A DNA stretch of 64,000 nt, taken from Treponema brennaborense (GTDB lineage Bacteria > Spirochaetota > Spirochaetia > Treponematales > Treponemataceae). Positions 5,806 to 61,387 of this stretch are shown in pieces. Both the position numbers and the translations under genes were made by a program. Within the stretch, counting starts at the first letter, position 1; each line of letters opens with the position of its first letter. Below the pieces are notes generated by a model that saw only the letters and a list, made by a program, of their open reading frames with translations, was not told the origin of the DNA and did not search any database. The stretch covers positions 17,976-81,975 of the forward strand of contig JAMPCJ010000006.1 in NCBI GenBank assembly GCA_023666275.1, in the 5' to 3' direction.

Positions 5806-5810
5806 AATTA

Positions 5811-5830
5811 CCTCGTTAAATTGTAATTTA
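5811..5830. repeat. cassette-boundary motif copy (identical 20-mer)
   Basis: cctcgttaaattgtaattta, identical to the copy at 5426..5445. Confidence 0.65.
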
Positions 5831-6469: not shown

Positions 6470-6477
6470 TTGTAATT

Positions 6478-6497
6478 CCTCGTTGAATTGCAATTTA
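6478..6497. repeat. cassette-boundary motif copy (cctcgttgaattgcaattta)
   Basis: 2 mismatches to the core. Contains the perfect palindrome AATTGCAATT. Confidence 0.6.
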
Positions 6498-7256
6498 TTT
6501 GTAGTTTTCGTATTTCGATTGTTCGAAAACTTTTTTTCCGATTACCGTAATTGCTTTTTGCGGACAGTGCGAAAAGCAGCGATAGCACATTGTGCATTTC
6601 CCGTTAAAATCAATACCGCTGTCTGTAAGGTTGATATTATTCATCGGACAAAGACTTGCGCATAAGCCGCAGTGTACGCATTCAGTGTTGTCAACTTTTG
6701 TTTTTGTATAATACGTTTTCGTTTTATTATAAAAATAAAGCCGCTGACCGAATAACCCCGCCAAATGATAAAAAAAGTTTAAGCCTTCTTTCGGATAACG
6801 ATTGTTTTTGATTTCGGCTATCGCTTTATCGATTTTCGCATCGGCATTTACTGCGATTTGTTTGTTGACTTGCAGCGGTCGTTTCAGTGCTTTTACGTCG
6901 CCGATACAATCGGGCATTTTAATATGCAAGCCGCCTAAAACTTTCGCGCCGTATTTTTTGAAAAGCCGTGCGGAAAGTCCCGCGCCGTCGCCGCTGAATA
7001 GTCCCATTGTGGCAGCGATAAAAATTTTTTTGCCGCAAAATACGTTTGCGTTATCGACAATAAAATCCCGCACGATTTTAGGCAAATTCGAGTATTGAAC
7101 GGGATAGCCGAAAATTATCGTTTCGCTGTTTTTGATAGCGTTTATCGTATCTTTATTTTCCAAAGCGTACACGGGCGCGTTTTCATGCAAGCCTTTTACA
7201 AGTCTTTCGACGCAATGTTTTGTATTGCCCGTGCCGCTGAAATATACGCCTGTCAT
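6495..7256 (-). CDS. flavodoxin-like protein with a C-terminal 4Fe-4S ferredoxin domain (EFR1-type)
   Basis: N-terminal YFSGTGNT flavodoxin signature. C-terminal CxxCxxCxxxCP ...CxxCxxCxxxCP. Confidence 0.7.
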   Translation of the reverse strand: MTGVYFSGTGNTKHCVERLVKGLHENAPVYALENKDTINAIKNSETIIFGYPVQYSNLPKIVRDFIVDNANVFCGKKIFIAATMGLFSGDGAGLSARLFKKYGAKVLGGLHIKMPDCIGDVKALKRPLQVNKQIAVNADAKIDKAIAEIKNNRYPKEGLNFFYHLAGLFGQRLYFYNKTKTYYTKTKVDNTECVHCGLCASLCPMNNINLTDSGIDFNGKCTMCYRCFSHCPQKAITVIGKKVFEQSKYENYK

Positions 7257-29468: not shown

Positions 29469-29556
29469 GCTATCGGCAAACTTCTCTATAGGCTATCGGC
29501 AAACTTCTCTATAGGCTATCGGCAAACTTCTCTATAGGCTATCGGCAAACTTCTCT
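29469..29556. repeat. 23-bp tandem repeat (gctatcggcaaacttctctatag) x ~4
   Basis: Direct head-to-tail copies visible in the sequence. A related array lies at 61311..61387. Confidence 0.85.
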
Positions 29557-32600: not shown

Positions 32601-32780
32601 CAAACAATCCGCGCAATGCAGGATCCGCGGCTTTCGCAAATTCCCATAATCGCGATGACTGCCAATGCTTTCGAGGAAGACCGGCAGACTGCGCTTCGCA
32701 GCGGCATGAACGGGCACATTGCAAAGCCGATCGACACGGACGAGCTGTTTTCGGAATTGGATAAGATTCTCGGAACGTAA
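29625..32780 (+). CDS. hybrid sensor histidine kinase/response regulator (cytoplasmic PAS sensors, HisKA, HATPase_c, two REC domains)
   Basis: H-box FLSNMSHDIRTPMNAVIGF, G-box GTGLGMAITKNIV and two receiver domains with conserved Asp/Lys. A TGTATAAT extended -10 lies immediately upstream of the ATG, so the mRNA may be leaderless. The start is uncertain. Confidence 0.8.
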   Translation: MYHCHIRFYLVGEENTVFDAAAASVPLENFEHELIRSPCIEKHAAETADAIFACLAETEMREIFSLSSLRRKNVPLIVLCRKECADFVFAEQSLAAKIDDIWFLPMTKAEAEFRFAKWQHAFKQQKDFWQTSQFLESTINFIPNLVWYKDKNGIHEKVNDSFCAAVNKTKSQVQGRGHAYIWDVEKDDPACIESERKVMDGRRTIISDETIMTGEGTRLLTTYKSPLYDVDGSVMGTVGVAIDVTQERAYKQEITERSRMLEAVLEAMDCGVICHTIDGTEVVSINAAALKILGYKSIEELVDDGFSTVAMSVLDEDKDRLRKILSALKKEGDRVSMEYRVRHDNGEIISVMGSAKLIRENGRLLCQRFLLDCTAQKMQEQREKKHHQELVYALSADYSLICYFDLDTGSGVPLRMDEETQQMLGDVFSDSLSLENTVSRYIETCVYGDDRSFMREALKRENLIREMAENKMRYMNYRVSFGGKMLYFQMKIVRVGEWSTCRAIVLGFRSVDEMTRMEIMRRSQLEDALVQANAANKAKTAFLSNMSHDIRTPMNAVIGFTSLALKHIDNHAQVEQFLHKIMSSGSHLLRLINDVLDMSHIESGKIHIEEKPADLSEILHGLRDIVQADAKAKQLEISMDTVGVVDEEIFCDKLRLNQVLLNILSNSVKYTPAGGKISMRITEKRLASNGCADYEFVISDTGIGMSAEFLAHIFEPFEREQNSTVSGIQGTGLGMAITKNIVDMMHGTISVKSEQGKGTEFSVLFTFRLNSDEKALPVIEKLRNCRALVADDDSAACTGVSSMLSQIGLRAEWTQSGEDALRLLHQAKADEEGFFVCIIDWQLSDMDALEAARRIRAEIGDDMHIIVLSAYDWGDIEEEAKKAGITTFCAKPLFFSELRACLNSIVNEQEKNKNAAASSEAEKVRGERILLVEDNEINQEIAQLILLDAGFSCEIAANGKEAIDLLSEHEPDYYRCILMDIQMPVMNGYEAAQTIRAMQDPRLSQIPIIAMTANAFEEDRQTALRSGMNGHIAKPIDTDELFSELDKILGT

Positions 32781-32957: not shown

Positions 32958-35900
32958 ATGAAAACACAAAAAATTGCTAAATTCAGTAAAATAAGAAAAA
33001 ATTTTCTGCAAGTTGCGGCAATTTTTATTCTGATAGGTTTTGTTTCTTTGCTGTTTTTCTGGTATACGAGGCAGAACTTAATCCGCATGACCGAGCGCAA
33101 CAAATTGTATGCCTTTGACGCGGCGCAAATCAAAGCCGACCAAATCGACGACGACTTCAATAACTCGCTCGACATGATACAAACATACGCCCATTTTGTC
33201 GGCGACAATCTGCCGTCTCCCGTCATCGACCTGCCGACGCTTGAAATGCTTCAGAACGGCGTGTTCGACGCGATGATGTTCGCCGATACGAACGGCGTGG
33301 ATGTCGTTTTCGACGGAAGATCCGCCTTGGCGGAAAACCGCGAATTCTTCAGAAAAGGAATCGCCGGCGGCACGGGAATCGACGTTGTGTTTTCATCCGA
33401 CTTTTACGATGACTCGATGCTCAGTTTCTACACGCCGCTGCACTACAAGGGACGCCTGATCGGCGTGCTACGCGGTGCGTACTTTGCCGAAAAGTACCTG
33501 AAGCGAATGCTCGAAACTTCGTATTTCGGCGAACCGTCGGACGTGTTTTTGTGCGAGAGCGACGGCCGCATCGTTGCGAGTTCCGGCAGAAAGGCAAGCG
33601 GCAGGTATCTTTTGGACTCGCTTGTGAAAGACGGCGTAATCAGCGGAGAAACCGCGGACGCCGTGCGGAAAATGTTCGCGGACGGCAAAAGCGGCGTTTT
33701 TACATGCGAAGTCAAAAGCAAAATGGACAATATAAGCATCGCTCCGCTTCCGTCGAATCAGTTTGTTCTCGTGCAGCTTTTTCCGAGCGCCGTTACAAAC
33801 AAAATGATTCATGCGGAGAACGCAATCGGCATGAAGATTGCATTGGCGCTCATTTTGGTCTTCATTATCTATATCGGTGTGCTGATTTACAGTGCCGCCT
33901 GCGCAAGAAAGCGCCTCGAAACCGAAAACCGCGACATGGGCTATATCATCAGCGGCATGAAAGCGCTTTTTACGCGTTTTGCCATTGCGGATTTGAACGA
34001 GGGAACGTACACCTACCTTTCGGGGACAAAACCTGAGGACAGCCGGCTGAAAAACAGCGGCGTTTACAGCGAACTTGTGGATTATTTCTGCGATATTCTT
34101 GTGGTTCCGGAAGAAAAGGAAAGCCTGCGCGAACAGATTTCGATCGAACGAATCAAAAACTCGCTGAAAGAACGTTCCGATTTGCGCATCGAATGCCACA
34201 TGAAAAACGGCGACTGGAATCACATCAACATTATCCGCATTGACGGCGGCGGAAAAGTCCTGTTTGCGCGGCAGAATACGACCTACACGAAGAAAAAAGA
34301 GCTGAAAATTCAGGCGGAACTTGAGAACACCTACCGCAAGGAACGGCAGTACCGCATCGCCATCATGTCGAATTCGTTCAATACGTTCGAATTCAACGTG
34401 TCGCAGGACTTGATTGAAAGCGACATCACGCGGACGCTGGAAGACGGGACAAAGATTTCGTTTTTGGAAAAATGCGCGCTTTCCGCGCCGTGCAAGGCTT
34501 CCGAATGCTTCCTTGCCTGGGAAAAATTCGTTTCAAGCGACTCGCTCGAAGACTTCAGGGCGACGGTAAATCCGGAGAGTCTGCGGCAGAAATACGAAAA
34601 AGGCGAAAAGGAAGTGTCCGTCGACTACTGGGCTTCGGCAGGTCAGGGCAGGAAAATGTGCGTGCGTCAGTCGTTCATCATGACGCGCGACGACAAGGGC
34701 GATATCATCGCGATGGTCATTTCGCGCGACATCACGGAGCAGGTGAAAAAGCAGTACGAACAGACGCAGGCCTTGCAGGACGCGCTTTTGCAGGCGCAGC
34801 ACGCGAACAACGCGAAGACGACGTTCCTTTCGAACATGAGCCACGACATCCGCACGCCGATGAACGCGATCATCGGATTCACGACGATTGCGGCGAGCCA
34901 CATCGACAACAAGGAGCAAGTCAGGGACTGCCTGCAGAAGGTGCTTTCGTCGAGCAACCATCTTCTGAGCCTCATCAACGACATTCTCGACATGAGCCGC
35001 ATCGAGAGCGGCAAGGTGCAAATCAAAGAGCAGGAATGCAACATTTCCGAAATGATGCACAGCCTCGTGAACATCATTCAGCCGCAGGTGAAGGCAAAGC
35101 AGCTCGAACTTTTCATCGACACGTTCGAAGTGGTGAACGAGGACGTCATCGCGGACGCGCTTAAAATGAATCAGGTTTTCATCAATCTTTTGAGCAACGC
35201 GGTGAAATACACGCCGGCGGGCGGAAGCGTTTCGTTCAGGATAATGCAGAAGACAACGTTCCGGCACGGCTGGGGCGACTACACGTTCATCGTAAAAGAC
35301 AACGGCATCGGAATGTCGCCGGATTTCGTCACGCACATTTTCGAGCCGTTCGAGCGCGAGTCCACCGTCACGCAGTCGGGCATTCAGGGGACGGGGCTCG
35401 GCATGGCGATCACGAAAAACATCGTGGAAATGATGGGCGGCACGATTTCCGTGGAAAGCGAGCAGGGCAAAGGCAGCACGTTCACGGTGGAACTTTCGCT
35501 GAAGCTTCAGGATGTGGAAAAGAACGCCGAGCAGCTTAAGGAACTCGACGGGCTGCGCGCGCTCGTGGTGGACGACGATCTGAACGTGTGCGACAGCGTG
35601 AACAAAATGCTCAAGCAGCTGGGAATGCGCGCCGAATGGACGACTTCCGGGTGCGAGGCCGCATACCGTGCGAAAACGGCGCACGAAGAAGGCGACTCGT
35701 ACCATACGTACATCATCGACTGGCAGATGCCCGAAATGAACGGCGTGGAGACCGCGCGCCGGATCCGCGCCGCCGTGGGCAGCGAAGCGCCGATCATCAT
35801 TCTCACCGCCTACGACTGGACGGACATCGAAGAGGAGGCGCGCTCCGTGGGTGTGACGGCGTTCTGCGCGAAGCCGCTTTTCCTTTCCGACCTCAAGGCC

Positions 35901-36383
35901 GCGCTGCTTGCCGCGAACAATTCTTCTTCCGCCAAAGACGAGGAGGAGAAAAGCGCGTCCTGGGCGCTCGAAGATTTCGGCGGAAAGCGGGTGCTCCTGG
36001 TTGACGACGTGGAAATGAACCGCGAGATTGCGCAGGTCATCCTCGAGGAGGCGGGATTCGCCGTGGAGACCGCGCCCGACGGCACCGACGCCGTGGTGAT
36101 GGTGGAAAAATCTAGCGAAAATTATTATGACGCGATTTTGATGGACGTGCAGATGCCGATTATGGACGGCTACGAGGCGACGCGCACCATCCGCGATATG
36201 CCGCGAGGCGACGTGAAGACAATGCCGATTATCGCGATGACCGCGAACGCGATGGAAGAGGACAAAGAAACCGCCCTCAAAAACGGCATGAATGCCCATA
36301 TCGCCAAGCCGCTCGACATCGACATTTTCATTTCCGTGCTGAAAAAATTCTTGGGGGGGGAAGGAGTAAACAGTAACGGCTAA
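32958..36383 (+). CDS. hybrid sensor histidine kinase/response regulator with a periplasmic sensor domain
   Basis: TM - periplasmic ~280 aa - TM - PAS - HisKA (FLSNMSHDIRTPMNAIIGF) - HATPase - REC x2. The 3' half is GC-rich. A G9 tract lies at 36353..36361. Confidence 0.85.
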   Translation: MKTQKIAKFSKIRKNFLQVAAIFILIGFVSLLFFWYTRQNLIRMTERNKLYAFDAAQIKADQIDDDFNNSLDMIQTYAHFVGDNLPSPVIDLPTLEMLQNGVFDAMMFADTNGVDVVFDGRSALAENREFFRKGIAGGTGIDVVFSSDFYDDSMLSFYTPLHYKGRLIGVLRGAYFAEKYLKRMLETSYFGEPSDVFLCESDGRIVASSGRKASGRYLLDSLVKDGVISGETADAVRKMFADGKSGVFTCEVKSKMDNISIAPLPSNQFVLVQLFPSAVTNKMIHAENAIGMKIALALILVFIIYIGVLIYSAACARKRLETENRDMGYIISGMKALFTRFAIADLNEGTYTYLSGTKPEDSRLKNSGVYSELVDYFCDILVVPEEKESLREQISIERIKNSLKERSDLRIECHMKNGDWNHINIIRIDGGGKVLFARQNTTYTKKKELKIQAELENTYRKERQYRIAIMSNSFNTFEFNVSQDLIESDITRTLEDGTKISFLEKCALSAPCKASECFLAWEKFVSSDSLEDFRATVNPESLRQKYEKGEKEVSVDYWASAGQGRKMCVRQSFIMTRDDKGDIIAMVISRDITEQVKKQYEQTQALQDALLQAQHANNAKTTFLSNMSHDIRTPMNAIIGFTTIAASHIDNKEQVRDCLQKVLSSSNHLLSLINDILDMSRIESGKVQIKEQECNISEMMHSLVNIIQPQVKAKQLELFIDTFEVVNEDVIADALKMNQVFINLLSNAVKYTPAGGSVSFRIMQKTTFRHGWGDYTFIVKDNGIGMSPDFVTHIFEPFERESTVTQSGIQGTGLGMAITKNIVEMMGGTISVESEQGKGSTFTVELSLKLQDVEKNAEQLKELDGLRALVVDDDLNVCDSVNKMLKQLGMRAEWTTSGCEAAYRAKTAHEEGDSYHTYIIDWQMPEMNGVETARRIRAAVGSEAPIIILTAYDWTDIEEEARSVGVTAFCAKPLFLSDLKAALLAANNSSSAKDEEEKSASWALEDFGGKRVLLVDDVEMNREIAQVILEEAGFAVETAPDGTDAVVMVEKSSENYYDAILMDVQMPIMDGYEATRTIRDMPRGDVKTMPIIAMTANAMEEDKETALKNGMNAHIAKPLDIDIFISVLKKFLGGEGVNSNG

Positions 36384-36631: not shown

Positions 36632-36832
36632 CTATTCCCTGAATTCCAAAATGTCGCCCGGCTGGCAGTCCAGCGCTTTGCAAATCGCTTTGAGTGTGGA
36701 AAAACGAATTGCGCTTATTTTGCCCGTCTTTATTTTCGAAAGGTTGACATTCGTGATGCCGACTTTTTCCGCAAGTTCTCCGAGGGAAATTTTTCTGTCC
36801 GCCATCATGCGGTCAAGGCGCAAGACTATCAT
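36632..36832 (-). CDS. XRE-family helix-turn-helix transcriptional regulator (YozG-like)
   Basis: 66-aa HTH protein (ISLGELAEKVGITNVNLSKIKTGK). It overlaps the upstream membrane-protein gene by 4 nt. Confidence 0.7.
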   Translation of the reverse strand: MIVLRLDRMMADRKISLGELAEKVGITNVNLSKIKTGKISAIRFSTLKAICKALDCQPGDILEFRE

Positions 36833-37398
36833 ATCAATCCCTCGACTTCCGATTCAAGCTTTTCGCCGTAAGAAAAAATCTGGCTCAGCGCGAGAATGAC
36901 GAATCCCGCGATTGCGCATTCCGCGTGCACGGCAAGCTCGATTTTGCCGAGGACCGCGCGGCAAGTCGCGCATACGAAAATTTGAAACGCCGGAATCAAA
37001 ATGTAAAAAACGCCGATTTCGCGGACCATTCGCACGATGTCTTTTTGGAACGGCGTTTCGCCTTTGGAAAACGAAGTTTTTCCGGCGGCGGTTTTGAGAA
37101 TAAGCGCGACATTGCGGAACATCATTGTTCTGACTGCAAACGAAAGAATTCCCGCCAAGGCAAAAAACGCCACGCTTCCTGCGATGACTGCATCTCCGTT
37201 TAAGATGTTTATGTCGAAACCCTGAACGCTCAGTTCGCCGTGGTTGCGGAGCGCGAGCGTTTTTGCGAAATTCGCGGCGGCATCCGCACGCGCAATGCTC
37301 AGTACAAAGGCTGCGGCATAGCCGAGCGCCGCGAGCGCGCAAACTGCTTCCAGAATTTTCGCCGCGATGCAAGTCGCCTTTGCCAGTTTCGTTTTCAT
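36829..37398 (-). CDS. DUF2975-like membrane protein
   Basis: Multi-TM protein in the conserved pairing with a YozG-like HTH. The start is at MKTKLAKA. Confidence 0.5.
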   Translation of the reverse strand: MKTKLAKATCIAAKILEAVCALAALGYAAAFVLSIARADAAANFAKTLALRNHGELSVQGFDINILNGDAVIAGSVAFFALAGILSFAVRTMMFRNVALILKTAAGKTSFSKGETPFQKDIVRMVREIGVFYILIPAFQIFVCATCRAVLGKIELAVHAECAIAGFVILALSQIFSYGEKLESEVEGLI

Positions 37399-37485: not shown

Positions 37486-38130
37486 TTAAAAGTGTATCGT
37501 AACACAGACCGAAGGCGTTACCGCCAGCGATCCGGCTTTTACAAGTTTGTTTTCCGTATCTTCGTAGTCGTCGTTGCGAACGCCGTCGTCCAAATCCCTG
37601 TCAACCGAATGGCATCCCACAAGCGCAACCGTTCCGAGAACATTGAATCCTATGCCGACGCGCTTCGAAAGCTGCACTGCAAGACCGACGTCTATGCCCG
37701 CCAAAAGATTCAAACCAGAAACCGCAGAATCAACGCTGTTTGCGGAAAGCTGATAGCGGTAATAGTCAAACCCGATTCCGCCTGTCAGCGCGAGCGTAAG
37801 CGTTTCTGTGCGCAGTGGCGCGTATCCGACCCCGCCGAATAAATTCACCAAGCCGCCCGTTTCGTTTTCTTTGGTCAAGTCGTCGCTGAAAATCGCCGCG
37901 CCCGTGAAATTTCCCAGAAACGAAAGGCCGTTGTCTTTGTTCACGGCAAGAAAATCAACATTGCCGCCGACTCCCGCATAGTTCATCGCGTCGCCGTCGG
38001 TCTTTTGGTGCGCAATCGGCGCGCTCACGCCGGCGAAAAGAATTTTGTTCCAGCTGCTTTCGGCAAAGGCAGCGGCGGAAAGCGCGGCGCAGAAAATCGC
38101 AAGCGCGATGATTTTTTTGTTCGTTTTCAT
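37486..38130 (-). CDS. outer-membrane beta-barrel protein (OmpA/porin-like)
   Basis: Signal peptide and alternating beta-strand pattern with a C-terminal aromatic residue. AGAGG RBS. Confidence 0.5.
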   Translation of the reverse strand: MKTNKKIIALAIFCAALSAAAFAESSWNKILFAGVSAPIAHQKTDGDAMNYAGVGGNVDFLAVNKDNGLSFLGNFTGAAIFSDDLTKENETGGLVNLFGGVGYAPLRTETLTLALTGGIGFDYYRYQLSANSVDSAVSGLNLLAGIDVGLAVQLSKRVGIGFNVLGTVALVGCHSVDRDLDDGVRNDDYEDTENKLVKAGSLAVTPSVCVTIHF

Positions 38131-40020: not shown

Positions 40021-40428
40021 ATGAAAAAATTGACGAAATTCATGTTTGTTTTCTGTGCGATGGCGGCATTTTTTGCAGCAAGCTGCGCGAGCGGTTCGCA
40101 CATTGTTACGGGAACGCAGCGGGAAGCAATCGGCGTTGAAGAAGTCAAAATTTTTACGGAATTTCCCGAAACGTATGAAGTTATCGGAATTGTATCGGCT
40201 TCGAGCGATGCCGGCTGGACGGAACAAGGAAGTTTGAATTATGCAATCAAAGAACTGAAAAATCAGGCCGCAAAAATCGGCGCGAACGGCATCGTTATTG
40301 AAAGCACGGGGCAAACAAGTGCTGGTGCAGTTTTGGTCGGAAACATGTTTGTTCCTGTGTCCGCGCAAACTGTTTCGGCAAAAGCAATTTATATTGAGCA
40401 TAAAAATTCAAGTGAGGAAGAAAAATGA
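40021..40428 (+). CDS. small lipoprotein, hypothetical
   Basis: Lipobox FFAASC. Its stop overlaps the HK3 start. Confidence 0.5.
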   Translation: MKKLTKFMFVFCAMAAFFAASCASGSHIVTGTQREAIGVEEVKIFTEFPETYEVIGIVSASSDAGWTEQGSLNYAIKELKNQAAKIGANGIVIESTGQTSAGAVLVGNMFVPVSAQTVSAKAIYIEHKNSSEEEK

Positions 40429-43415
40429 AAAAGTTGCCGTCGGTTTTTCGTCTTTGCTGTTTTACTGCGGTGATGTGTGTGTGCTGCGTGCCGCAGCAGG
40501 CTTTTGCGCAAGAGCAAATTCAAACCGCCGCCGCTGCGGTGCGCGTGGGCTACTACGATTCGGGCGAGCCGGACTTTCAGAGCGGCTTTTCCGACGATGT
40601 GCGGAAATCGGGGTACGCCTACGACTATTACCAAATGCTCGCGCGCTTTGCCGGCTGGAAATACGAATATGTTTACGGAAGCAGAGAAGAAATCCGCGAA
40701 AAACTCGCCGCGGGCGAAATCGACATAATGGCGGGCGCGTATAAAACGAACGGCCTCTTTGCGGACAAAGTCGATTTTTCGGCAATGGACATGGGCTTGA
40801 ACGACGGCAGATATTTTGCCGTAAGCAAGGCAAATGCCGGACTGCTCGGCGAATTGAATTATGCGATGGCGCAAATCGCCGAAGTTTTTCCGACGTTCAC
40901 GTTCAAGCTGTATCAAAAGCATTTCAATAAGTCGTCTTTTTCGGGTTTGACCGAGCGCGAGGAACAGTGGCTGCTGCAAAAAAACACGCTGACATTCGGA
41001 TATACGCGCCATCATTTGCCGTTTTCGGGACAGGACGACGAGGGAAATCCCGCAGGACTTGCGGGCGAGCTTATACGGCAGCTCGAAGAATTTGCGGACA
41101 TAAAAGTTGTTCCGGTGTGCTTCGATTATGTGTGGGATATGGAAAACGCGCTGAAAGACCATACTATCGATATTGGCTTTCCGATGTATTCTGACAGCTG
41201 GATTGCCGAGCGCAAAGGCTTGATTCAGACGGAAACCGTCGTTACCGACAGAATGATGATGGTTTACCGCGGCGAATACACAAGAGACACCACTTCAAGC
41301 CTTGCTATGCCCAAAATGTCGCTCGGACTGCGCGACTATCTTCCGACCAATTATCCGAATTCGGCTGTAACGGAATATGATAATTTTAAGGATACGTTCG
41401 ATGCTGTGTATTACGGCAAGGTCGGCGCTTTTATCGCTTATTCAAGCATAATCCAGCGTCAGCTGACCGGCTATGACAAAGCCAATGAGCTTAAGGTGAG
41501 CTATCTCGACAAAACCGAAGAGCTTTGCATGCTGGTTTGTCAGCATAATGCCGTTTTGGCAGTGATACTCGACAAGATGATAAATCAAATCAACCGTGAA
41601 GTGATAATGGCCGCGCTTTTGCGCCATGCGAGCATGAAAAAGGACGATCCGACGCTTTTGGATTTTTTCAAGCGCTACGCGCATCTTTTTGTAATTGTGC
41701 TTGTCGTTTTCGTTTCGTGTATTGCAGCGGCGTTCGCAATGTACATCAGAAAGTCGCGCGCGTACGCACGGGAACAGGAAGAAATGCAGTCTTCGCTGAA
41801 AAAGGCGCTCGAAATGGCGGACGCGGCGAACAAGGCGAAGACGCAGTTTCTTTCGAGCATGAGCCACGACATCCGCACGCCGATGAACGCGATTGTCGGG
41901 ATGACGGACATCGCCAAAAAGCACACGGACGACAAAGAAAAGCTCGAAGACTGCCTCGACAAAATTACGCTTTCGAGCCACCACCTTTTGACGCTCATCA
42001 ACGACGTGCTCGACATTTCCAAAATCGAAAGCGGCCGCCTCACGCTCAATCCGATCAATTTTTCGCTGCGCAGCACTACGGACAATCTCGTGAATATCGT
42101 GCGCCCGATGATAAAATCCAAGCGGCAGGAATTCGAAGTGCGCATCCACAATGTGAACTGCGAAACGCTGTACGGCGACGAACTTCGCGTGAGCCAGATT
42201 TTCATAAACATTCTTTCCAATGCCGTAAAGTACACGCCCGACGGCGGAAAAATCATTCTCGACCTGCACGAAGAATTCGTCGACGAGCAGACCGTGCGCC
42301 TTACATATATCGTCAAGGACAACGGCATCGGCATGAGCCGCGAATATATGGAAAAAATGTACGACACTTTCACCCGCGCAAACGACAGCCGCATCAACAA
42401 AGTGCAGGGCACGGGGCTCGGACTTGCGATAGTGCGCCAAATGGTCATGCTGATGGACGGCACAATCGAATGCGAAAGCGAAGTGGACAAAGGCACGACG
42501 TTCACGGTAAAACTCGAACTTCCCGTCGGCGAGGAGAAGCGCAAAGTTTACACGCTTCCGCCGATTGACATTCTCTTCGTGGACGACGACGAAGTTTTCC
42601 TCACGATTACCGAGGACACCGTGGAAGAAATGGGCGCGAACGTGGAAACCGCCGCGACAGGCGAAAAAGCCCTCGAACTTGTGAAAAAACGGCACGAAGA
42701 GGGCAGGGATTACAGCATCGCGATAGTCGACTGGAGGCTTCCCGGAATGAGCGGCGCCGAAACCGTGCGCGCCATACGTGAAATTGCGGGCGAGGACACT
42801 TCGATAATTCTCGTGAGCGCCTACGACTGGTCGGACATCGAAGAAGACGCGAAGACAAGTGGCGCCGACGGATTTATTTCAAAGCCGCTTTTCAAATCGT
42901 ATTTGGCGGAAAAAATCGAACTTGTAATCAGCAAAGGCGAAGCAAAAACCGCAATGCCGGAAGACAAAAACGGCGATCTCAAGGGACTGCATGTGCTTGT
43001 CGCCGAAGACAACGACATCAACTGGGAAATCATCAGCGAGCTGCTTGAAATGCAGGGAATCACCGCCGATCACGCCGAAAACGGAAAAGAAGCGCTTTCC
43101 GCAATGGAAAACGCGGAAGACGGCAAGTACAGTCTTATCTTGATGGACGTGCAGATGCCTCTTATGAACGGCAGGGAAGCGACCGCGGAACTCCGAAAAT
43201 CGCCGCGCGGTTATGTGAAGAACATTCCGATAATCGCGATGACCGCCGACGCCTTCGCCGAAGACATTGCCGCCTGTCTTGCTGCGGGCATGGACGGCCA
43301 CGTGCCGAAGCCCGTGGATATGGACAAATTGTTCCAGGAAATGCGCCGTGTTCTTACCCCCCCCCGTCGGCCTCGGCGGACGAATAAGGGCGCGGCAGAA
43401 ATGGAGCGACCTTAA
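40425..43415 (+). CDS. hybrid sensor histidine kinase/response regulator with two periplasmic solute-binding (SBP_bac_3-like) domains
   Basis: Signal peptide, two PBP-like domains, TM, HisKA (FLSSMSHDIRTPMNAIVGM), HATPase and REC x2. GC-rich. A C9 tract lies at 43357..43365. Confidence 0.85.
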   Translation: MKKLPSVFRLCCFTAVMCVCCVPQQAFAQEQIQTAAAAVRVGYYDSGEPDFQSGFSDDVRKSGYAYDYYQMLARFAGWKYEYVYGSREEIREKLAAGEIDIMAGAYKTNGLFADKVDFSAMDMGLNDGRYFAVSKANAGLLGELNYAMAQIAEVFPTFTFKLYQKHFNKSSFSGLTEREEQWLLQKNTLTFGYTRHHLPFSGQDDEGNPAGLAGELIRQLEEFADIKVVPVCFDYVWDMENALKDHTIDIGFPMYSDSWIAERKGLIQTETVVTDRMMMVYRGEYTRDTTSSLAMPKMSLGLRDYLPTNYPNSAVTEYDNFKDTFDAVYYGKVGAFIAYSSIIQRQLTGYDKANELKVSYLDKTEELCMLVCQHNAVLAVILDKMINQINREVIMAALLRHASMKKDDPTLLDFFKRYAHLFVIVLVVFVSCIAAAFAMYIRKSRAYAREQEEMQSSLKKALEMADAANKAKTQFLSSMSHDIRTPMNAIVGMTDIAKKHTDDKEKLEDCLDKITLSSHHLLTLINDVLDISKIESGRLTLNPINFSLRSTTDNLVNIVRPMIKSKRQEFEVRIHNVNCETLYGDELRVSQIFINILSNAVKYTPDGGKIILDLHEEFVDEQTVRLTYIVKDNGIGMSREYMEKMYDTFTRANDSRINKVQGTGLGLAIVRQMVMLMDGTIECESEVDKGTTFTVKLELPVGEEKRKVYTLPPIDILFVDDDEVFLTITEDTVEEMGANVETAATGEKALELVKKRHEEGRDYSIAIVDWRLPGMSGAETVRAIREIAGEDTSIILVSAYDWSDIEEDAKTSGADGFISKPLFKSYLAEKIELVISKGEAKTAMPEDKNGDLKGLHVLVAEDNDINWEIISELLEMQGITADHAENGKEALSAMENAEDGKYSLILMDVQMPLMNGREATAELRKSPRGYVKNIPIIAMTADAFAEDIAACLAAGMDGHVPKPVDMDKLFQEMRRVLTPPRRPRRTNKGAAEMERP

Positions 43416-43509
43416 AGCACCGGATGCCGCTGCCGCGGAAAAGCGCGAAGATTGACCGCGGCGGACGACGCGAGCCGTCAGAGATGTCCGCCTTTGTAAA
43501 TTGTGCTTT

Positions 43510-43715
43510 TTCGAATTTATTTGCGGAAAAACGTAAATGTATTACCGCAAATACGTATGCGTTTTTCCCGAAATATGTAAACGTTTTACCGCAAATACGT
43601 TTACGTTTTTGCGGAAATACATTCTGAAAATGCGGATTTTTGAAAAAATGTGCGTTCCCCCGCGCGGCGTGGCAGTCCGCAAAAATTCCGCGAACAATGC
43701 GGGCAGTCCGCAAAT
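43510..43715. repeat. repeat-rich intergenic region with multiple CCGCAAA / TTTGCGG half-sites
   Basis: taccgcaaatacgt x2, tttgcggaaa x2 and gcagtccgcaaa x2 direct repeats between the convergent HK3 and XRE genes. Confidence 0.5.
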
Positions 43716-44045
43716 TCACAAGATATTTTTATGCGTGAATCGCTCTTCCACTTCTTGAATTTTTTGCGTGAGTTCGGCAGAAAGCGTCTGTACGAAAAAA
43801 GCAATGTCGCTTTGCGCCGTATCTTCGCTCGGAAGCGCGAAAAAGGCTGATATCGGCACTCCAAAAAATGTTGCAAAGCGCGCAAGCGTTTCAGGCGAAA
43901 CCCATTTCTTGCAGTTTTCAATATCATTGATGAACGTAAACGCCATTTGCAGGCTGTTTGCGAGTTTCATCTGTGAAAGACCTCTTTGTTTTCGAAATTT
44001 CTTCAAATTTTCCGCCAAAGTTTGTCTTACTTCTTTTTCGTCCAT
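43716..44045 (-). CDS. XRE-family HTH regulator with a C-terminal extension
   Basis: HTH LKKFRKQRGLSQMKLANSL. Divergent from the GmrSD-like gene. Confidence 0.65.
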   Translation of the reverse strand: MDEKEVRQTLAENLKKFRKQRGLSQMKLANSLQMAFTFINDIENCKKWVSPETLARFATFFGVPISAFFALPSEDTAQSDIAFFVQTLSAELTQKIQEVEERFTHKNIL

Positions 44046-44199
44046 AGTGTAAGTTATTCCAATAGAGTATTATTTTATTACACTATTGGCTTGATGTTTT
44101 CGCAATAATCTAGTAGACTGTTGTTATTATTCGCTATTAGCGGATAAATCTATGTTTTTTATGCGAATAAATTTTTCCCGTTTTCAAAGGATTTATATA

Positions 44200-45936
44200 A
44201 TGGCAAAACTCAATATCGACCAAAAAAGCATTAAAGATTTATTTGAGGACAAAAAGTCCGATTTCCTTATTCCCGATTATCAAAGGCCGTATCGCTGGAG
44301 TGTGTACGAATGTGAAGAACTGTGGGAAGATATATTTGAATTCGCCTTTCCAAACAATAACGCAGACAATTTTAATACTGAAGAAGAATATTACTTAGGT
44401 TCAATCGTTACATTTCGAAATGATGCCGGCAAAAAGGAAATAATCGACGGTCAGCAGAGACTTTCGACTTTAATGCTTTTGCTGCGTGCTTTCTATGTCA
44501 AATTCGGAGAAGTGCAGGACGATAATTCCAAAAAAATGCGTGAAAATATCGAAAAGTGTATATGGAAAACTGATGAAGTCGGCAACCCTGATAAAAGCGC
44601 ATTGAAAATCAATTCGGAAGTCGCCGCGGATGACGATAAGGAAGAATTGTTAAAAATTCTCAAGACGGGCGACGCAAGCGATATGAAAAGCCGTTATGCC
44701 GAAAATTACAGATTTTTCCAAAGGAAAATAGATGATTTCTCGAACAACTATCCGTCATGTTTTTTATACCTGCCTGCAAGAATATTGAATAACTGCATTC
44801 TGCTTCCGATTGAAGCTGATGACCAAAATACAGCCTTGCGTATTTTTTCAACACTTAATGACAGAGGAATGCCTTTGTCGGATACAGATATTTTCAAGGC
44901 GCAGTTTTATAAATATTATTCAAGCAAAGGGCAAAAGAATGATTTTATTGAAAAATGGAAAAACTTAGAAAAACATTCCAATCTTGACTTCTTGTTTTAT
45001 CAATACATGTACTATGAACGGGCAAAAATGGGAATCACAGACTCCACAACCGAAGGTTTAAGAAAGTTTTATGAAAAGAACAAATATGAATTATTGCGAA
45101 AAGACGAAACATTGGAAAATCTTATTGACTTGGCGAATTTTTGGCATGATGTTGATGTTCAAGATAACGAAAGATTTTCAGAAGATGTATTAAAAAAGTT
45201 ATTTGTCCTTGAGTTCGCGCCTAATGCTATATGGATGTCCTTTGTGTCGGTATATTATTTGCATAACCGCAACGATAAAGGCGAAGTAAACAATGATTTA
45301 TTTAATGGTTTCCTGCAAAAAATGACAGCATTTATATGGGCGTACGCCGTCTATATGCCGGGCGTAATTGCTTTGAGAGCACCTATTTATACGGAAATGG
45401 TAAATATCGTCAATAATCGTCCTGTCGAATTTGCAGATAGAAAATTCGATTTAATTCAATTAAAAAGTATGTTTGAAAACTATGACTTCAATAACAACCG
45501 TCCCATAACAAAAGCAATGCTTGCTTGGTGGGCATATCAAGACGTTGAGCAGCCGCTATTGTCTATCGGAACGGCTTTTGACATAGAACATATATACGCA
45601 AAAAATCGTAATGATAAAGAGGGCGGTTTGAGCAATATCAAATATATGGACAAACTCGGAAACAAATCATTGCTTGAAAAGCGCATAAATATTCGTGCTT
45701 CGGATTACAGATTTGAAGACAAGAAAAAATATTACGAAGGTTTTACCACCCAAAAAGGCAAAGTTAAAGATTCTACCGCAATTGTATCTTTGAAAAAATT
45801 AGCACAGCAAAGCGATTTTGTTGAAGCTGACATTATCAGGCGGAATGATGAAATAATCGAAACATTTATGCAGTTTCTGACGGATAATAATTTAAATAAA
45901 ATTGAAAATAATCCGCGCAAAAGTGCCGCAAAGTGA
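44200..45936 (+). CDS. GmrSD-family type IV (modification-dependent) restriction endonuclease-like protein (DUF262 + DUF1524)
   Basis: N-terminal ParB/Srx-like DUF262 with the DGQQR motif (IIDGQQRLSTLMLL). C-terminal His-Me/HNH-like DUF1524 (AFDIEHIYAKNRN). AT-rich codon usage. Confidence 0.75.
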   Translation: MAKLNIDQKSIKDLFEDKKSDFLIPDYQRPYRWSVYECEELWEDIFEFAFPNNNADNFNTEEEYYLGSIVTFRNDAGKKEIIDGQQRLSTLMLLLRAFYVKFGEVQDDNSKKMRENIEKCIWKTDEVGNPDKSALKINSEVAADDDKEELLKILKTGDASDMKSRYAENYRFFQRKIDDFSNNYPSCFLYLPARILNNCILLPIEADDQNTALRIFSTLNDRGMPLSDTDIFKAQFYKYYSSKGQKNDFIEKWKNLEKHSNLDFLFYQYMYYERAKMGITDSTTEGLRKFYEKNKYELLRKDETLENLIDLANFWHDVDVQDNERFSEDVLKKLFVLEFAPNAIWMSFVSVYYLHNRNDKGEVNNDLFNGFLQKMTAFIWAYAVYMPGVIALRAPIYTEMVNIVNNRPVEFADRKFDLIQLKSMFENYDFNNNRPITKAMLAWWAYQDVEQPLLSIGTAFDIEHIYAKNRNDKEGGLSNIKYMDKLGNKSLLEKRINIRASDYRFEDKKKYYEGFTTQKGKVKDSTAIVSLKKLAQQSDFVEADIIRRNDEIIETFMQFLTDNNLNKIENNPRKSAAK

Positions 45937-46160: not shown

Positions 46161-46410
46161 CGCTTTCGCGTTATGTCGGGCTTTCCGGTTTTCGAAAAGC
46201 CTGCTTTTGCGTTATGACGGCGTTTCGGTTTTCGAAAAGTCTGCTTTCGTGTTATGACGGCGTTTTCGGCTTTTCAAAAAGCCTGCTTTTGCGTTATGGT
46301 GGGCTTTCCGGCTTTCGAAAAGCCTGTTTTCGTGTTATGACGGCGTTTTCGCATTTTCGAAAAGCCCGCTTTCGCGTTATGTCGGTGTTTTCGGCTATTC
46401 GAAAAGCTCG
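46161..46410. repeat. 41-42-bp tandem repeat x ~6 (ttcgaaaagcctgcttttgcgttatgacggcgttttcggtt)
   Basis: Near-identical head-to-tail units with no variable spacers. A G8 tract lies at 46421..46428. Confidence 0.85.
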
Positions 46411-46547
46411 CCGTGCGATTGGGGGGGGACGCTTTCCTTTTATGCAGCGGCGGACGACCGGATCGCTTCACATTCGTTCGCGATGACGAAGCTGGGTTGT
46501 GTGGAACGGATGGGCAATGCGGTAAAGCTGCGCCGAAAATATCCCCC

Positions 46548-55063: not shown

Positions 55064-56032
55064 TTAAAGGGACAAAGAACTTTGGTTTTGTCGTTCGGCT
55101 TCCCATATTTCTCGGGTTGCATTTTGCATGGTTTGAACGAAATAACTTAGACTGTTTGGAGCGACACAACCAGTTTTATGAGTCAAAGCACCTTTCGTAT
55201 AATCGTGCATCGCACCTAAGGAATTACAGGTTAACGCTAAATTCATGCATTGTTGTAAATCACTAACTTGCAAGTCCAAATTTTGTTGGCTATTCATTTT
55301 GGATACGGCTTTATTTAGGAAAAAGTCAGTACGGGTAGTAATTGGGGTGAACGCTTGACGGTCATTTTGTGCATAAATGTTGGTAAGATCAAGGTCATTT
55401 AAGTATTTGTTATTTGAAACATAGTAAATTAAATCTTCTTTTTCGGTGTTGTAATCGCTCATTTGTGGATTGGAGTAGTTACGATAATAACCCAAGCCTT
55501 CTTTATAAGATTCGCCCGCCAAAACACGGTAACAAAGTTCAAAAGCTTCGCGTTCATCGGCGTTGTCAAGATTTTTAATAATGTCGGTAAAAATTTTATC
55601 GAAAGGAAGTGGGTTTACGTTAAGCAATTTGTCAAATTCTTGTCCACCGGGTCTAACTTCATATATATGATAGTATCTATTGCTTTTCAACGTGTTGATA
55701 ACATTGCTAAAATAATTTTGTGCGTTTGGGCGACCATTCAAAGATTGTTCCAAATTGTTTGCTAAACCTTTAATATAGGTTTCGGCTTTGTTCAAATAAT
55801 AATTAACGTTATTAACTGCATAAGCCGAGCCTTCGCCTTCATTGACGGTGCTGCCGGTAAATTTCGGATTTTCGCCCATAAAATTGTGCAACGTATAATT
55901 ACCAATCGTCACGTCGTACGGCAAATTGTCTTTGTTCACATTGTTATCGTTGTAACTGTCGTCAACGCTGCTGCCCGTCGGTTGTGCGCAGCCCGCCATC
56001 ATCACGCCCGTGGTTAACGCCGCGCCCAACAT
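55064..56032 (-). CDS. lipoprotein, hypothetical (N/Y-rich)
   Basis: Signal peptide with lipobox MMAGC. The start is placed at the ATG at 56032; the listed start is GTG 56044. AT-rich. Confidence 0.55.
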   Translation of the reverse strand: MLGAALTTGVMMAGCAQPTGSSVDDSYNDNNVNKDNLPYDVTIGNYTLHNFMGENPKFTGSTVNEGEGSAYAVNNVNYYLNKAETYIKGLANNLEQSLNGRPNAQNYFSNVINTLKSNRYYHIYEVRPGGQEFDKLLNVNPLPFDKIFTDIIKNLDNADEREAFELCYRVLAGESYKEGLGYYRNYSNPQMSDYNTEKEDLIYYVSNNKYLNDLDLTNIYAQNDRQAFTPITTRTDFFLNKAVSKMNSQQNLDLQVSDLQQCMNLALTCNSLGAMHDYTKGALTHKTGCVAPNSLSYFVQTMQNATREIWEAERQNQSSLSL

Positions 56033-56662: not shown

Positions 56663-56746
56663 GCCCGGATGGTGGAATTGGTAGACACGCTAGTTTCAGG
56701 TACTAGAGCCCGCAAGGGTGTGCAAGTTCAAGTCTTGTTCCGGGCA
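56663..56746 (+). tRNA. tRNA-Leu (anticodon CAG)
   Basis: Long variable arm, anticodon loop TTCAGGT and T-arm GTTCAAGTC. Followed by a terminator. Confidence 0.9.
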
Positions 56747-61310: not shown

Positions 61311-61387
61311 CGGCAAACCTCGCTATAGGCTATCGGCAAACCTCGCTATAGGCTATCGGCAAACCTCGCTATAGGCTATCGGTGAAC
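61311..61387. repeat. 23-bp tandem repeat (gctatcggcaaacctcgctatag) x ~3
   Basis: Related to the array at 29469..29556, with 3 differences per unit. Flanked by gtgaactRca words. Confidence 0.85.

What the first reader, a model, noticed from the sequence alone, without database searches (positions are those of the whole stretch)
43716..45936. AT-rich islet encoding an XRE regulator divergent from a GmrSD-type (DUF262/DUF1524) type IV restriction enzyme
The 579-aa protein has the DGQQR ParB-like NTPase/nuclease N-domain and a His-Me finger DUF1524 C-domain. This is the GmrSD/BrxU-like modification-dependent restriction architecture. Its codon usage is conspicuously AT-rich relative to the flanking GC-rich HK3 and the Rrf2-cysK genes. 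It is paired divergently with an XRE HTH regulator carrying a C-terminal extension, and it is flanked by repeat-rich DNA (43510..43715 upstream, 41-bp tandem repeats downstream). This is a likely horizontally acquired anti-phage element.
Basis: partly seen in the sequence, partly recalled or inferred. Interest (0 to 1): 0.6.

Follow-up and report, generated by a model that had tools for sequence, protein, structure and literature searches.

The report
Acquired GmrSD nuclease behind XRE switch
A spirochaete-like genome has picked up a single-gene anti-phage nuclease of the well-known GmrSD family, and the gene sits behind the outward-facing promoter of a small Treponema-type repressor cassette. 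The nuclease is ordinary, and the reusable regulatory cassette is the mildly new part.

Summary
Window 43716-44045 (-) encodes a 109-aa XRE HTH protein. Window 44200-45936 (+) encodes a 578-aa protein with GmrSD_N (DUF262, E 4e-40) and GmrSD_C (DUF1524, E 2.5e-9) domains and intact DGQQR, EH, N and N motifs. Its GC (0.36) is the lowest of 41 long ORFs in the window.

DNA homology to foreign homologues covers only the RBS and ORF (44181-45903). These homologues are 78-82% identical in protein and occur in Clostridia, beside recombinases, behind type I hsdR, and on plasmids. The ancestral stop codon is lost at the GC change-point. I read the gene as a horizontally acquired, stand-alone GmrSD-like defence nuclease, a new member of a known kind. 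Its substrate, modified DNA, is inferred and not shown.

The XRE is not a GmrSD partner elsewhere. It belongs to a Treponema-restricted family whose gene plus about 100 bp of upstream DNA is conserved in 7 distinct loci. That upstream DNA carries three CYAWTRG boxes, the XRE promoter and a divergent TTGACT-17-TAGAGT promoter. Each locus faces a different, non-homologous cargo. GmrSD is therefore probably repressed by this cassette; this is inferred.

The flanking tandem repeats are real and unique in the window, but their function is unexplained. No empty site could be found.

The parts
43495..43640 (.). AT-rich 22-nt repeat array in alternating orientation, forming one long imperfect hairpin between the convergent HK and XRE genes. 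It marks the left end of the low-GC block and may be a bidirectional terminator. Its role is unproven.
   Evidence: TRF gives 43527-43620, period 22 x4.3. The inverted arms are 61 nt and 75% complementary. The fold has dG -46.5 and z -5.8. The GC change-point lies at 43495. There is no homologue in 189 loci or in the rest of the window, and no Rfam family matches.
43716..44045 (-). XRE-family HTH repressor of 109 aa. It has an HTH domain at residues 1-70, a variable linker, and a conserved C-terminal helix.
   Evidence: Pfam HTH_3 scores 2.6e-9. The best PADLOC hits are HTH_VI at 1.3e-14 and Control_protein at 6.5e-11. The best PDB hit is the RM controller C.BclI (2b5a) at 4.5e-6. There are 109 homologues, and every organism name a source gives is Treponema or Spirochaetaceae.
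44046..44147 (.). Control region conserved with the XRE family, holding back-to-back promoters and three operator-like boxes. Conservation stops at about 44147.
   Evidence: Alignments A1 and A4 cover 7 distinct loci. blastn shows 71-76% nt identity to all other XRE loci over 44054-44146. The motif ATTRGTGTAATWR lies upstream of the XRE homologue in 15 of 15 XRE loci and in 0 of 177 other loci.
44059..44065 (.). Box O1 (CCAATAG), one copy of the palindromic core CYAWTRG, 20 nt upstream of the XRE start.
   Evidence: The box sits at the same position (-16 to -20) in 6 of 7 loci; L189 has CCAGTGG, one base off the core, at that spot. The background frequency is 0.15 per kb.
44083..44089 (.). Box O2 (CTATTGG). 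It abuts the XRE -10 (TGTAAT, minus strand, 44077-44082) on one side and lies one base from the cargo -35 on the other.
   Evidence: and the sequence read.
44091..44119 (+). Cargo-facing promoter: -35 TTGATG (44091-44096), a 17-nt spacer, and -10 TAGACT (44114-44119). The family consensus is TTGACT-17-TAGAGT. An alternative extended -10, TGTTATTAT, lies at 44122-44130.
   Evidence: These columns are invariant or nearly invariant in A4. The consensus scan did not list it because its thresholds were not met. This is a sequence inference only.
44134..44140 (.). Box O3 (CTATTAG), inside the 11-bp palindrome CGCTATTAGCG (44132-44142). It lies 15 nt downstream of the cargo -10, which is a roadblock position.
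   Evidence: The hairpin 44127-44147 is listed.
44148..44180 (.). Junction between the XRE cassette and the imported GmrSD module. It has homology to neither.
   Evidence: Cassette conservation ends at about 44147. Homology to foreign GmrSD loci begins at 44181.
44200..45936 (+). GmrSD-like nuclease gene of 578 aa, with RBS AAAGGA at 44186-44191. The DUF262/ParB-like NTPase domain carries DGQQR (residues 83-87, nt 44446-44460). A helical linker follows. The DUF1524 His-Me finger carries E463 and H464 (nt 45586-45591), N488 and N497.
   Evidence: Domains and motifs. PDB profile hits. AF2 model with pLDDT 78 and pTM 0.70. Foldseek to DndI 9jfl.
45901..45936 (+). 11-codon C-terminal extension (IENNPRKSAAK) plus the stop codon. 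Homologues end at ...DNNL[S/N]K*, so the ancestral stop is lost and the ORF reads into GC-rich flank. This marks the right end of the imported DNA, at about 45910.
   Evidence: C-terminal comparison with L083, L087, L091, L181 and L186. The end of nt homology lies at 45900-45903. The GC change-point lies at 45910.
46162..46407 (.). Tandem array of six 40-42-nt units, each holding the palindrome GGCTTTTCGAAAAGCC followed by a T-rich run. It lies in GC-rich intergenic DNA outside the low-GC block. Whether it belongs to the islet is uncertain.
   Evidence: Two units score as terminator-like. The overall fold is not unusual, with z -1.4. There is no copy in the other loci.

Best explanation
The locus is a mosaic two-part islet of about 2.4 kb.

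Part 1 is a stand-alone GmrSD-family nuclease. It has an N-terminal DUF262/ParB-like NTPase domain with DGQQR, a helical linker, and a C-terminal DUF1524 His-Me finger. It was imported as little more than its own RBS and ORF. By analogy with GmrSD, BrxU, the enterococcal type IV enzyme and HEC-06, it most likely uses NTP hydrolysis by the DGQQR domain to license the HNH-type domain to cut invading phage DNA. The DNA it cuts most likely carries a base modification that the host lacks, so no methylase or immunity gene is needed.

Part 2 is a Treponema-lineage XRE cassette. It comprises the repressor gene plus about 100 bp carrying its own promoter, a divergent outward promoter and three CYAWTRG boxes. 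The imported gene sits directly behind the outward promoter. XRE dimers bound at O2 and O3 probably keep GmrSD transcription low, and binding at O1 and O2 probably autoregulates the XRE.

What is shown: the domain architecture, intact catalytic residues, foreign composition, the limits of homology, the varied contexts of the five homologue sets examined, conservation of the cassette, and the non-homology of its cargo genes.

What is inferred: the anti-phage role, dependence on DNA modification, promoter activity, XRE binding to the boxes, and repression of GmrSD.
For: Family assignment.
- Pfam GmrSD_N scores 4.3e-40 and GmrSD_C scores 2.5e-9.
- The best PADLOC profiles are HEC-06 at 2.7e-38, then Orf5 and SspE.
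- The motif IIDGQQRLSTLMLLL fits the family signature (I/V)(I/V)DGQQRLTT(I/L/V)xLL from PMC4619093.
- D83, Q85, Q86, R87, E463, H464 and N497 are at least 90% conserved, and G84 and N488 are invariant, in 55 diverse representatives.
- In HEC-06, mutating the equivalent QR and EH residues abolishes defence (bioRxiv 10.1101/2024.01.29.577857).
- Profile hits to solved structures are DndI 6e-35, SspE 6e-32 and BrxU 1.4e-9. The AF2 model matches DndI 9jfl at E 5e-10.

Horizontal origin.
- The gene has the lowest GC and GC3 of 41 ORFs, and the GC change-points lie at 43495 and 45910.
- Nucleotide homology to the nearest homologues spans only 44181-45903.
- Those homologues sit beside a serine recombinase and Rep, alone among housekeeping genes of a Clostridia genome, directly downstream of type I hsdR in an ICE-like region, and between two flavin reductase genes in a Treponemataceae MAG.
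- 657 plasmid records carry relatives, and one IMG/VR contig carries a 60% identical relative near a GH25 lysozyme.
- The ancestral stop codon is lost at the right junction.

Regulatory cassette.
- All named XRE homologues are from Treponema or Spirochaetaceae.
- In 7 distinct loci the XRE is divergent from first cargo genes that are non-homologous between loci.
- The upstream 100 bp is 71-76% identical. It holds CYAWTRG boxes at -95, -44 and -20: all three in 6 of the 7 loci, two in L189, whose proximal box is one base off. The background is 0.15 per kb.
- The divergent TTGACT-17-TAGAGT promoter is conserved.
- The XRE's closest solved relative is the restriction-modification controller C.BclI.
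Against: - No experiment or transcript data are available.
- The substrate is unknown. By profile E-value, the closest solved relatives are the phosphorothioate-sensing DndI and SspE, not BrxU.
- The HEC-06 profile match is only 130 bits and is mostly N-terminal, so subfamily placement is loose.
- The window's cargo promoter hexamers (TTGATG and TAGACT) are weaker than the family consensus, and the generic promoter scan did not call them.
- None of the five GmrSD homologue contexts examined has such an XRE, so the adjacency could be incidental.
- No empty site or strain polymorphism was found to prove recent insertion.
- The nearest homologue is only 78% identical in nucleotides, so the donor is unsampled or the transfer is old.
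- Parts of the N-domain in the AF2 model have low confidence.
Confidence: 0.6

Rival explanations
1. The protein is a phosphorothioate-sensing effector of the SspE/DndI type. It would read a host backbone modification to stay quiet on self DNA and would nick unmodified invader DNA, rather than acting as a type IV enzyme that cuts modified DNA.
For: Profile search of PDB ranks DndI (6e-35) and SspE (6e-32) far above BrxU (1.4e-9). The only significant Foldseek match is DndI 9jfl. The protein has P25, Y27 and Q28 and D83GQQR87 at essentially the DndI numbering, where P23, Y25 and Q26 line the PT-sensing patch and Y25A abolishes the PT response (PMC11662687).
Against: SspE and DndI act together with ssp or dnd modification genes: dndI lies next to the dndBCDE operon. 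None of these genes occurs within 10 kb on either side here or in the other ORFs checked. None occurs next to the nearest homologues in four different contexts. The PxYQR and DGQQR motifs are general DUF262 features. The PDB ranking reflects mainly the shared N-domain, and no GmrSD sensu stricto structure exists for comparison.
Confidence: 0.08
2. The XRE and GmrSD genes are neighbours by accident. The XRE only autoregulates or controls something else, and GmrSD is expressed constitutively from its own signals, as in its solitary homologues.
For: The nearest GmrSD homologues have no XRE neighbour. Type IV-like enzymes need no timing control. The window's outward promoter hexamers deviate from the family consensus and were not picked up by the generic scan.
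Against: The outward promoter and box O3 are conserved across 7 loci although they lie beyond what XRE autoregulation needs. In every locus a gene starts 15-130 nt after O3 on that strand. Imported GmrSD DNA starts only 19 nt before its ATG, which leaves no room for a promoter of its own.
Confidence: 0.25
3. The gene is a decaying or domesticated remnant with no defence function. It would be an old insertion retained by drift.
For: It is only 78% identical in nucleotides to the nearest sampled homologue. The stop codon is lost, giving an 11-aa tail. There are no mobility genes or clear target-site duplications; the 12-nt direct repeat has p of about 0.04.
Against: The ORF is full length and collinear with homologues over residues 1-567. 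Every catalytic or near-invariant residue is retained. GC is still far from the host's.
Confidence: 0.07

Closest known systems
GmrSD (E. coli CT596 and UT189/Eco94GmrSD), the type IV restriction enzyme family defined by Machnicka et al. 2015 (PMC4619093)
   Same: A single polypeptide with a DUF262 domain carrying DGQQR, a helical linker, and a DUF1524 His-Me finger. It is a stand-alone gene, is typically on mobile DNA, and is often near type I RM genes and regulators.
   Different: No close sequence relationship was measured, because only family-level profiles were available. The substrate of GmrSD, glucosyl-hmC DNA, is unknown here. This copy sits behind an XRE cassette.
HEC-06 (Hma-embedded candidate 06; PADLOC; bioRxiv 10.1101/2024.01.29.577857)
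   Same: It gives the best PADLOC profile match, at 2.7e-38. It is a GmrSD-like single-gene defence protein whose DGQQR and (E)H motifs are required for defence. Homologues of the window protein (P0054, 66% identity) are attached to type I RM, as reported for this group.
   Different: The match is only 130 bits and the best stretch covers the N-terminal 260 residues. The window gene is not embedded in an Hma or RM system.
BrxU (pEFER BREX-embedded GmrSD-family enzyme, PDB 7P9K)
   Same: The same two-domain logic and the same NTP-dependent, modification-dependent restriction paradigm.
   Different: The profile match is weak, at 1.4e-9 over residues 10-97 only. There is no BREX context, and its regulator in pEFER is the WYL protein BrxR, not an XRE.
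DndI and SspE (phosphorothioate-sensing DUF262-HNH effectors, PDB 9JFL, 6JIV)
   Same: They are the closest solved structures by profile and by fold. They share DGQQR at residues 83-87 and the PxYQ patch.
   Different: They work with, and dndI lies beside, PT-modification genes (dndBCDE, sspABCD), which are absent here and next to the nearest homologues. The fold match has TM of only about 0.48.
Restriction-modification controller (C) proteins, e.g. C.BclI, C.PvuII, C.AhdI
   Same: A small XRE-type HTH. C.BclI is the best PDB match for the XRE (4.5e-6), and PADLOC Control_protein scores 6.5e-11. Palindromic boxes at its own promoter appear to control a nuclease gene.
   Different: C genes lie upstream of and co-directional with the REase gene and work with a methylase. 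Here the nuclease is divergent, there is no methylase, there are three 7-bp CYAWTRG boxes rather than C-boxes, and the same cassette faces unrelated cargo in other genomes.
Defence-island regulators BrxR/CapW (WYL) and RptR (PMC9122601, PMC12255303)
   Same: These are regulator families found next to many different defence systems, with a conserved operator that travels with the regulator gene.
   Different: They are different protein folds and families and have different operators (RptR binds TAGCTA). They occur mainly in Proteobacteria. This family is XRE-type and, so far, is seen only in Treponema and Spirochaetaceae.

Membership tests
GmrSD family (PF03235 + PF07510; Machnicka 2015) | N-terminal DUF262/GmrS (ParB/Srx-like) domain | tested here: met
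   PF03235 scores 4.3e-40 and 138 bits against a cutoff of 33.2, over residues 12-237.
GmrSD family (PF03235 + PF07510; Machnicka 2015) | Signature (I/V)(I/V)DGQQRLTT(I/L/V)xLL | tested here: met
   IIDGQQRLSTLMLLL lies at residues 81-95. D83, Q85, Q86 and R87 are at least 90% conserved and G84 is invariant in 55 representatives.
GmrSD family (PF03235 + PF07510; Machnicka 2015) | C-terminal DUF1524 His-Me finger with catalytic (D/E)H and downstream Asn residues | tested here: met
   PF07510 scores 2.5e-9 and 37.6 bits against a cutoff of 23. E463, H464, N488 and N497 are conserved. The model has a beta-beta-alpha element at 460-464, 489-493 and 505-513.
GmrSD family (PF03235 + PF07510; Machnicka 2015) | NTP-dependent cleavage of modified (e.g. 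glucosyl-hmC) DNA | not testable with these tools
   This needs phage challenge or biochemistry.
HEC-06 (PADLOC) | Full-length match to a HEC-06 profile | tested here: inconclusive
   It is the best PADLOC hit (PDLC04154, 2.7e-38), but it scores only 130 bits. The best stretch covers residues 4-260 of the protein against positions 6-267 of a 569-position model.
HEC-06 (PADLOC) | Embedded within Hma or type I RM operons | tested here: not met
   The neighbours are HK, XRE, Rrf2 and CysK. A 66% identical homologue does sit directly after hsdR.
BrxU | Close similarity to BrxU and a BREX context | tested here: not met
   The profile against 7p9k gives 1.4e-9 over the N-terminus only. No BREX genes lie within 10 kb on either side.
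SspE/DndI PT-sensing effectors | Genetic linkage to sspABCD or dndBCDE modification genes | tested here: not met
   No such Pfam families occur in the 21.7-kb neighbourhood or in the other ORFs checked. None occurs next to the nearest homologues. The whole genome was not examined.
SspE/DndI PT-sensing effectors | DGQQR NTPase motif plus hydrophobic PxYQ patch | tested here: inconclusive
   P25, Y27, Q28 and D83GQQR87 are present. However, these are conserved across the whole DUF262 set, so they do not discriminate.
R-M controller (C) proteins (for the XRE) | Small XRE-type HTH related to known C proteins | tested here: met
   C.BclI 2b5a scores 4.5e-6. PADLOC Control_protein scores 6.5e-11.
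R-M controller (C) proteins (for the XRE) | Gene immediately upstream of and co-transcribed with the REase, plus a cognate methyltransferase | tested here: not met
   The XRE is divergent from the nuclease gene, and no DNA methyltransferase lies in the neighbourhood.

The most novel reading that the evidence does not exclude
The Treponema XRE gene and its 100-bp control region may form a portable 'regulated docking cassette'. The control region holds three CYAWTRG operators and a conserved outward promoter. Unrelated accessory or defence genes would be repeatedly swapped in behind it. The cargoes seen are GmrSD here, a BnzA-like protein, an LRR protein, a SHOCT protein and unknown proteins, with ToxN, CBASS and AAA_21/RloB close by. 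This would be a lineage-specific XRE analogue of BrxR- or RptR-type defence-island regulators, with cargo exchange occurring at a fixed point just past operator O3.
Probability: 0.35. Interest if true: 0.55.

Novelty: new member of a known kind. Interest (0 to 1): 0.3.

Why it matters
The nuclease adds one more GmrSD-like defence gene, in a poorly sampled spirochaete lineage. It also gives a clean example of a defence gene moving as a bare ORF: 19 nt upstream of the ATG and about 10 nt past the ancestral stop. Homologues 78-79% identical in protein occur in a Clostridia genome, i.e. across phyla if the window is from a spirochaete, as its gene content suggests.

The more useful lead is the regulator. 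A conserved XRE, operator and outward-promoter cassette that faces different cargo in each genome would be a simple, testable model for how newly acquired and potentially toxic defence genes are put under control in Treponema. It could also serve as a marker for finding new defence or accessory genes in spirochaete genomes.

Tried and rejected
1. Empty-site and presence/absence test.
- Exact look-ups of GmrSD, CysK and Rrf2 found only the same three assemblies, all with the same arrangement.
- A genome-contig scan with the HK gave about 30 orthologues (63-79% identity) in sister NALB MAGs, but with no shared flanking genes.
- A metagenome-contig scan with the DinG-like helicase gave at best 61% identity and no CysK-Rrf2 synteny.
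- The test is therefore inconclusive.

2. Target-site duplication. The best candidate is the 12-nt direct repeat GCGGCGGACGAC at 43458-43469 and 46447-46458. It is matched or beaten in 11 of 300 shuffles, so it is not convincing.

3. Known RNA in the repeats. Rfam gave only sub-threshold miRNA-like noise.

4. Repeats as genome-wide elements. No other copies occur in the window or in 189 loci.

5. Phage origin of the XRE cassette. Neither a protein scan nor an exact-motif scan of IMG/VR gave a hit.

6. Single-sequence PDB search for the nuclease. It gave no hit; a profile was needed.

7. Organism names for the nearest GmrSD homologues. The cluster look-up carried none. The host of L087 was instead inferred from its Der GTPase.

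8. PADLOC on cargo proteins of other XRE loci. Only one of ten matched, a BnzA N-terminal region. A 'defence-only cargo' claim is therefore not supported.
Full report
OBSERVATION. The coordinates are right. An ORF at 43716..44045 (-) encodes a 109-aa protein, and an ORF at 44152..45936 (+) encodes 594 aa. The plausible start of the second is the ATG at 44200, preceded by AAAGGA with 8 nt of spacing. That gives 578 aa, as called on the source contig, GCA_023665405.1 JAMPDY010000001.1.

Pfam assigns GmrSD_N (PF03235, 4.3e-40) and GmrSD_C (PF07510, 2.5e-9) to the large protein and HTH_3 (2.6e-9) to the small one. The large gene has GC 0.358 and GC3 0.371, the lowest of the 41 long ORFs in the window (mean GC 0.481, sd 0.049). 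The flanking HK, Rrf2, CysK and DinG-like genes have GC 0.52-0.53. A two-state change-point model places the low-GC block at about 43495-45910, with GC 0.364 against 0.546 outside.

Both repeat arrays exist. One has a 22-nt unit repeated 4.3 times at 43527-43620. The other has a 40-42-nt unit repeated 6 times at 46162-46407. They are two of only four strong tandem arrays in the 64 kb.

THE NUCLEASE. The protein carries the family signature IIDGQQRLSTLMLLL at residues 81-95. It also carries a His-Me finger with E463, H464, N488 and N497. In an alignment of 55 diverse representatives (29-62% identity), G84 and N488 are invariant and the other catalytic residues are at least 90% conserved. The signature is the one defined for GmrSD by Machnicka et al. 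(PMC4619093).

The best PADLOC profile is HEC-06 (2.7e-38), followed by Orf5 and SspE. HEC-06 is an experimentally validated GmrSD-like defence protein in which the equivalent QR and EH residues are essential (bioRxiv 10.1101/2024.01.29.577857). The match is only 130 bits and mostly N-terminal, so I do not file the protein as HEC-06.

A single-sequence PDB search found nothing. A profile search found a DUF262 protein 20yv (1.5e-36), DndI 9jfl (6e-35), SspE (6e-32) and BrxU (1.4e-9). An AlphaFold model (pLDDT 78, pTM 0.70, with parts of the N-domain weak) matches only DndI significantly. The superfamily is large: 12,708 50%-identity clusters at E up to 1e-3.

HORIZONTAL ORIGIN. The nearest homologues are 78-82% identical in protein and 75-78% in nucleotides. 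They occur in four different settings.
- Beside a serine recombinase and a Rep protein (L083, L084).
- Alone among housekeeping genes (L087-L090). The Der GTPase of that genome is 92-94% identical to proteins labelled Clostridia.
- At 66% identity, directly after a type I hsdR in an ICE-like region (L091-L094).
- At 62% identity, between two flavin reductase genes of a Treponemataceae MAG (L181).

In each context where it was measured, the gene is an AT-rich island: gene GC 0.31 against flanks of 0.40-0.43. Relatives occur on 657 plasmid records and on one IMG/VR contig near a GH25 lysozyme.

Nucleotide homology between the window and these loci runs only from 44181 to 45903, i.e. 19 nt before the ATG to the ancestral stop position. 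Homologues end ...DNNL[S/N]K*. In the window the stop is lost and 11 further codons are read from GC-rich flank. This coincides with the GC change-point at 45910. The imported unit is thus essentially a bare ORF with its RBS.

A direct presence/absence test failed. Exact look-ups found only three assemblies with the same arrangement. HK and DinG orthologues from the two large scans show no conserved synteny.

THE XRE AND ITS CONTROL REGION. The XRE's 109 homologues are 50-66% identical over nearly the whole length, mostly 104-110 aa long, and, where a source gives an organism name, are from Treponema or Spirochaetaceae. The HTH is almost invariant. Its best solved relative is the restriction-modification controller C.BclI, and PADLOC Control_protein scores 6.5e-11.

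In six other distinct loci, the XRE homologue is always divergent from a first gene that differs from locus to locus:
- an LRR_5 protein;
- a 56-aa ORF followed by a SHOCT protein;
- 141/187-aa and 139-aa unknown proteins;
- 170-aa and 511-aa unknown proteins;
- a 301-aa protein with a BnzA-like N-terminus.
ToxN, PIN, CBASS or AAA_21/RloB genes lie nearby. These cargo proteins share no similarity with each other across loci.

By contrast, the roughly 100 bp upstream of the XRE is conserved at 71-76% nucleotide identity, as high as the coding region. The motif ATTRGTGTAATWR occurs upstream of the XRE homologue in 15 of 15 loci and nowhere in 177 other loci.

The region contains copies of a palindromic core CYAWTRG at fixed positions, -95, -44 and -20 from the XRE start: all three in six of the seven loci, and two in L189, where the proximal box differs by one base. 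The background is 0.15 per kb. In window coordinates they are O1 at 44059-65, O2 at 44083-89 and O3 at 44134-40. Between O1 and O2 lies the XRE -10 (TGTAAT). One base beyond O2 on the other strand is a conserved outward promoter, consensus TTGACT-17-TAGAGT and in the window TTGATG-17-TAGACT at 44091-44119. O3 lies inside the palindrome CGCTATTAGCG just downstream of that -10.

Conservation ends right after O3, at about 44147. The GmrSD-derived DNA begins at 44181, so the join is within 44148-44180. This anatomy argues that the cassette supplies the promoter for whatever gene lies behind it, and that the XRE represses it from O2 and O3. That is an inference from sequence alone.

THE REPEATS. 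The 22-nt array is AT-rich, lies inside the low-GC block, and folds into a single long hairpin (dG -46.5, z -5.8) between the convergent HK and XRE genes. It could be a bidirectional terminator. The 42-nt array lies in GC-rich DNA outside the block. Each unit has a GGCTTTTCGAAAAGCC palindrome followed by T-rich sequence, but the array as a whole is not unusually structured, with z -1.4. Neither array has relatives in the window, in 189 fetched loci or in Rfam. A 12-nt direct repeat bracketing the whole region is only marginally above chance, at 11 of 300 shuffles. I cannot tie the repeats to mobility or function.

MECHANISM AND RIVALS. The best reading has confidence 0.6 for the whole statement. 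The family assignment taken alone is far more secure than that, and the defence role somewhat more secure. It is a stand-alone GmrSD-like NTP-dependent nuclease that attacks phage DNA, most likely DNA carrying a modification the host lacks, with expression held down by the adjacent XRE cassette.

The main functional rival is a phosphorothioate-sensing SspE/DndI-like role. The PDB ranking and shared motifs suggest it. It is weakened by the absence of dnd and ssp genes here and beside all the nearest homologues examined. The main regulatory rival is that the XRE adjacency is incidental. I give it 0.25, because the imported DNA has no room for its own promoter and the outward promoter and O3 are conserved with the cassette.

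NOVELTY. The modestly new element is the Treponema XRE cassette with interchangeable cargo. It resembles C proteins, BrxR/CapW and RptR in role but not in family.

Noticed in passing
window 29469-29556 and 61311-61382: Two perfect tandem arrays of related 23-nt units with 100% identical copies: GCTATCGGCAAACTTCTCTATAG x3.8 and CGGCAAACCTCGCTATAGGCTAT x3.1. The first lies just upstream of a TTGTATAAT promoter-like site and the hybrid histidine kinase ORF 29625-32780.
   Followed up: no
window 1790-7256 and 55064-56032: Other low-GC patches with GC of about 0.39-0.41. The first holds a CoiA_N-like 292-aa protein, a 543-aa unknown protein, a hexapeptide transferase and a flavodoxin/Fer4 protein. 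The second is a 322-aa ORF with no Pfam match, about 630 nt from tRNA-Leu(CAG) at 56663-56746. It may be another acquired islet.
   Followed up: partly
window 36632-36832 (-) and the ORFs 36829-37398 and 37486-38130: A second small XRE (66 aa, HTH_26 at 3.5e-23) lies in the same orientation as two unknown ORFs of 189 aa and 214 aa, between two hybrid histidine kinases.
   Followed up: partly
whole window; L004-L034: The NCBI organism labels of this MAG ('Bacteroides sp.') and its sister NALB MAGs (Ruminococcus, Blautia, Muribaculaceae and others) conflict with gene content. The TP_0927 family, XRE relatives in Treponema bryantii and Treponema sp., and HK relatives in Spirochaetales MAGs all point to a spirochaete.
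   Followed up: partly
L183 348-2429 versus L184 and L185 527-2407: On otherwise identical backbones next to an XRE-family cassette, a CBASS pair (DncV-like NTase plus Cap15) is replaced by an AAA_21 plus RloB pair. This is a defence hot-spot swap in rumen Treponema-like contigs.
   Followed up: no
window 29625-32780, 32958-36383, 40425-43415: Three paralogous hybrid histidine kinase/response-regulator genes lie within 14 kb, at about 42% identity between the 1141-aa and 996-aa copies. The third ends 300 nt from the islet.
   Followed up: no
L186 1400-3136: A 60% identical GmrSD homologue lies on an IMG/VR viral contig, 2.3 kb from a GH25 lysozyme gene. This suggests prophage carriage of this subfamily.
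   Followed up: partly
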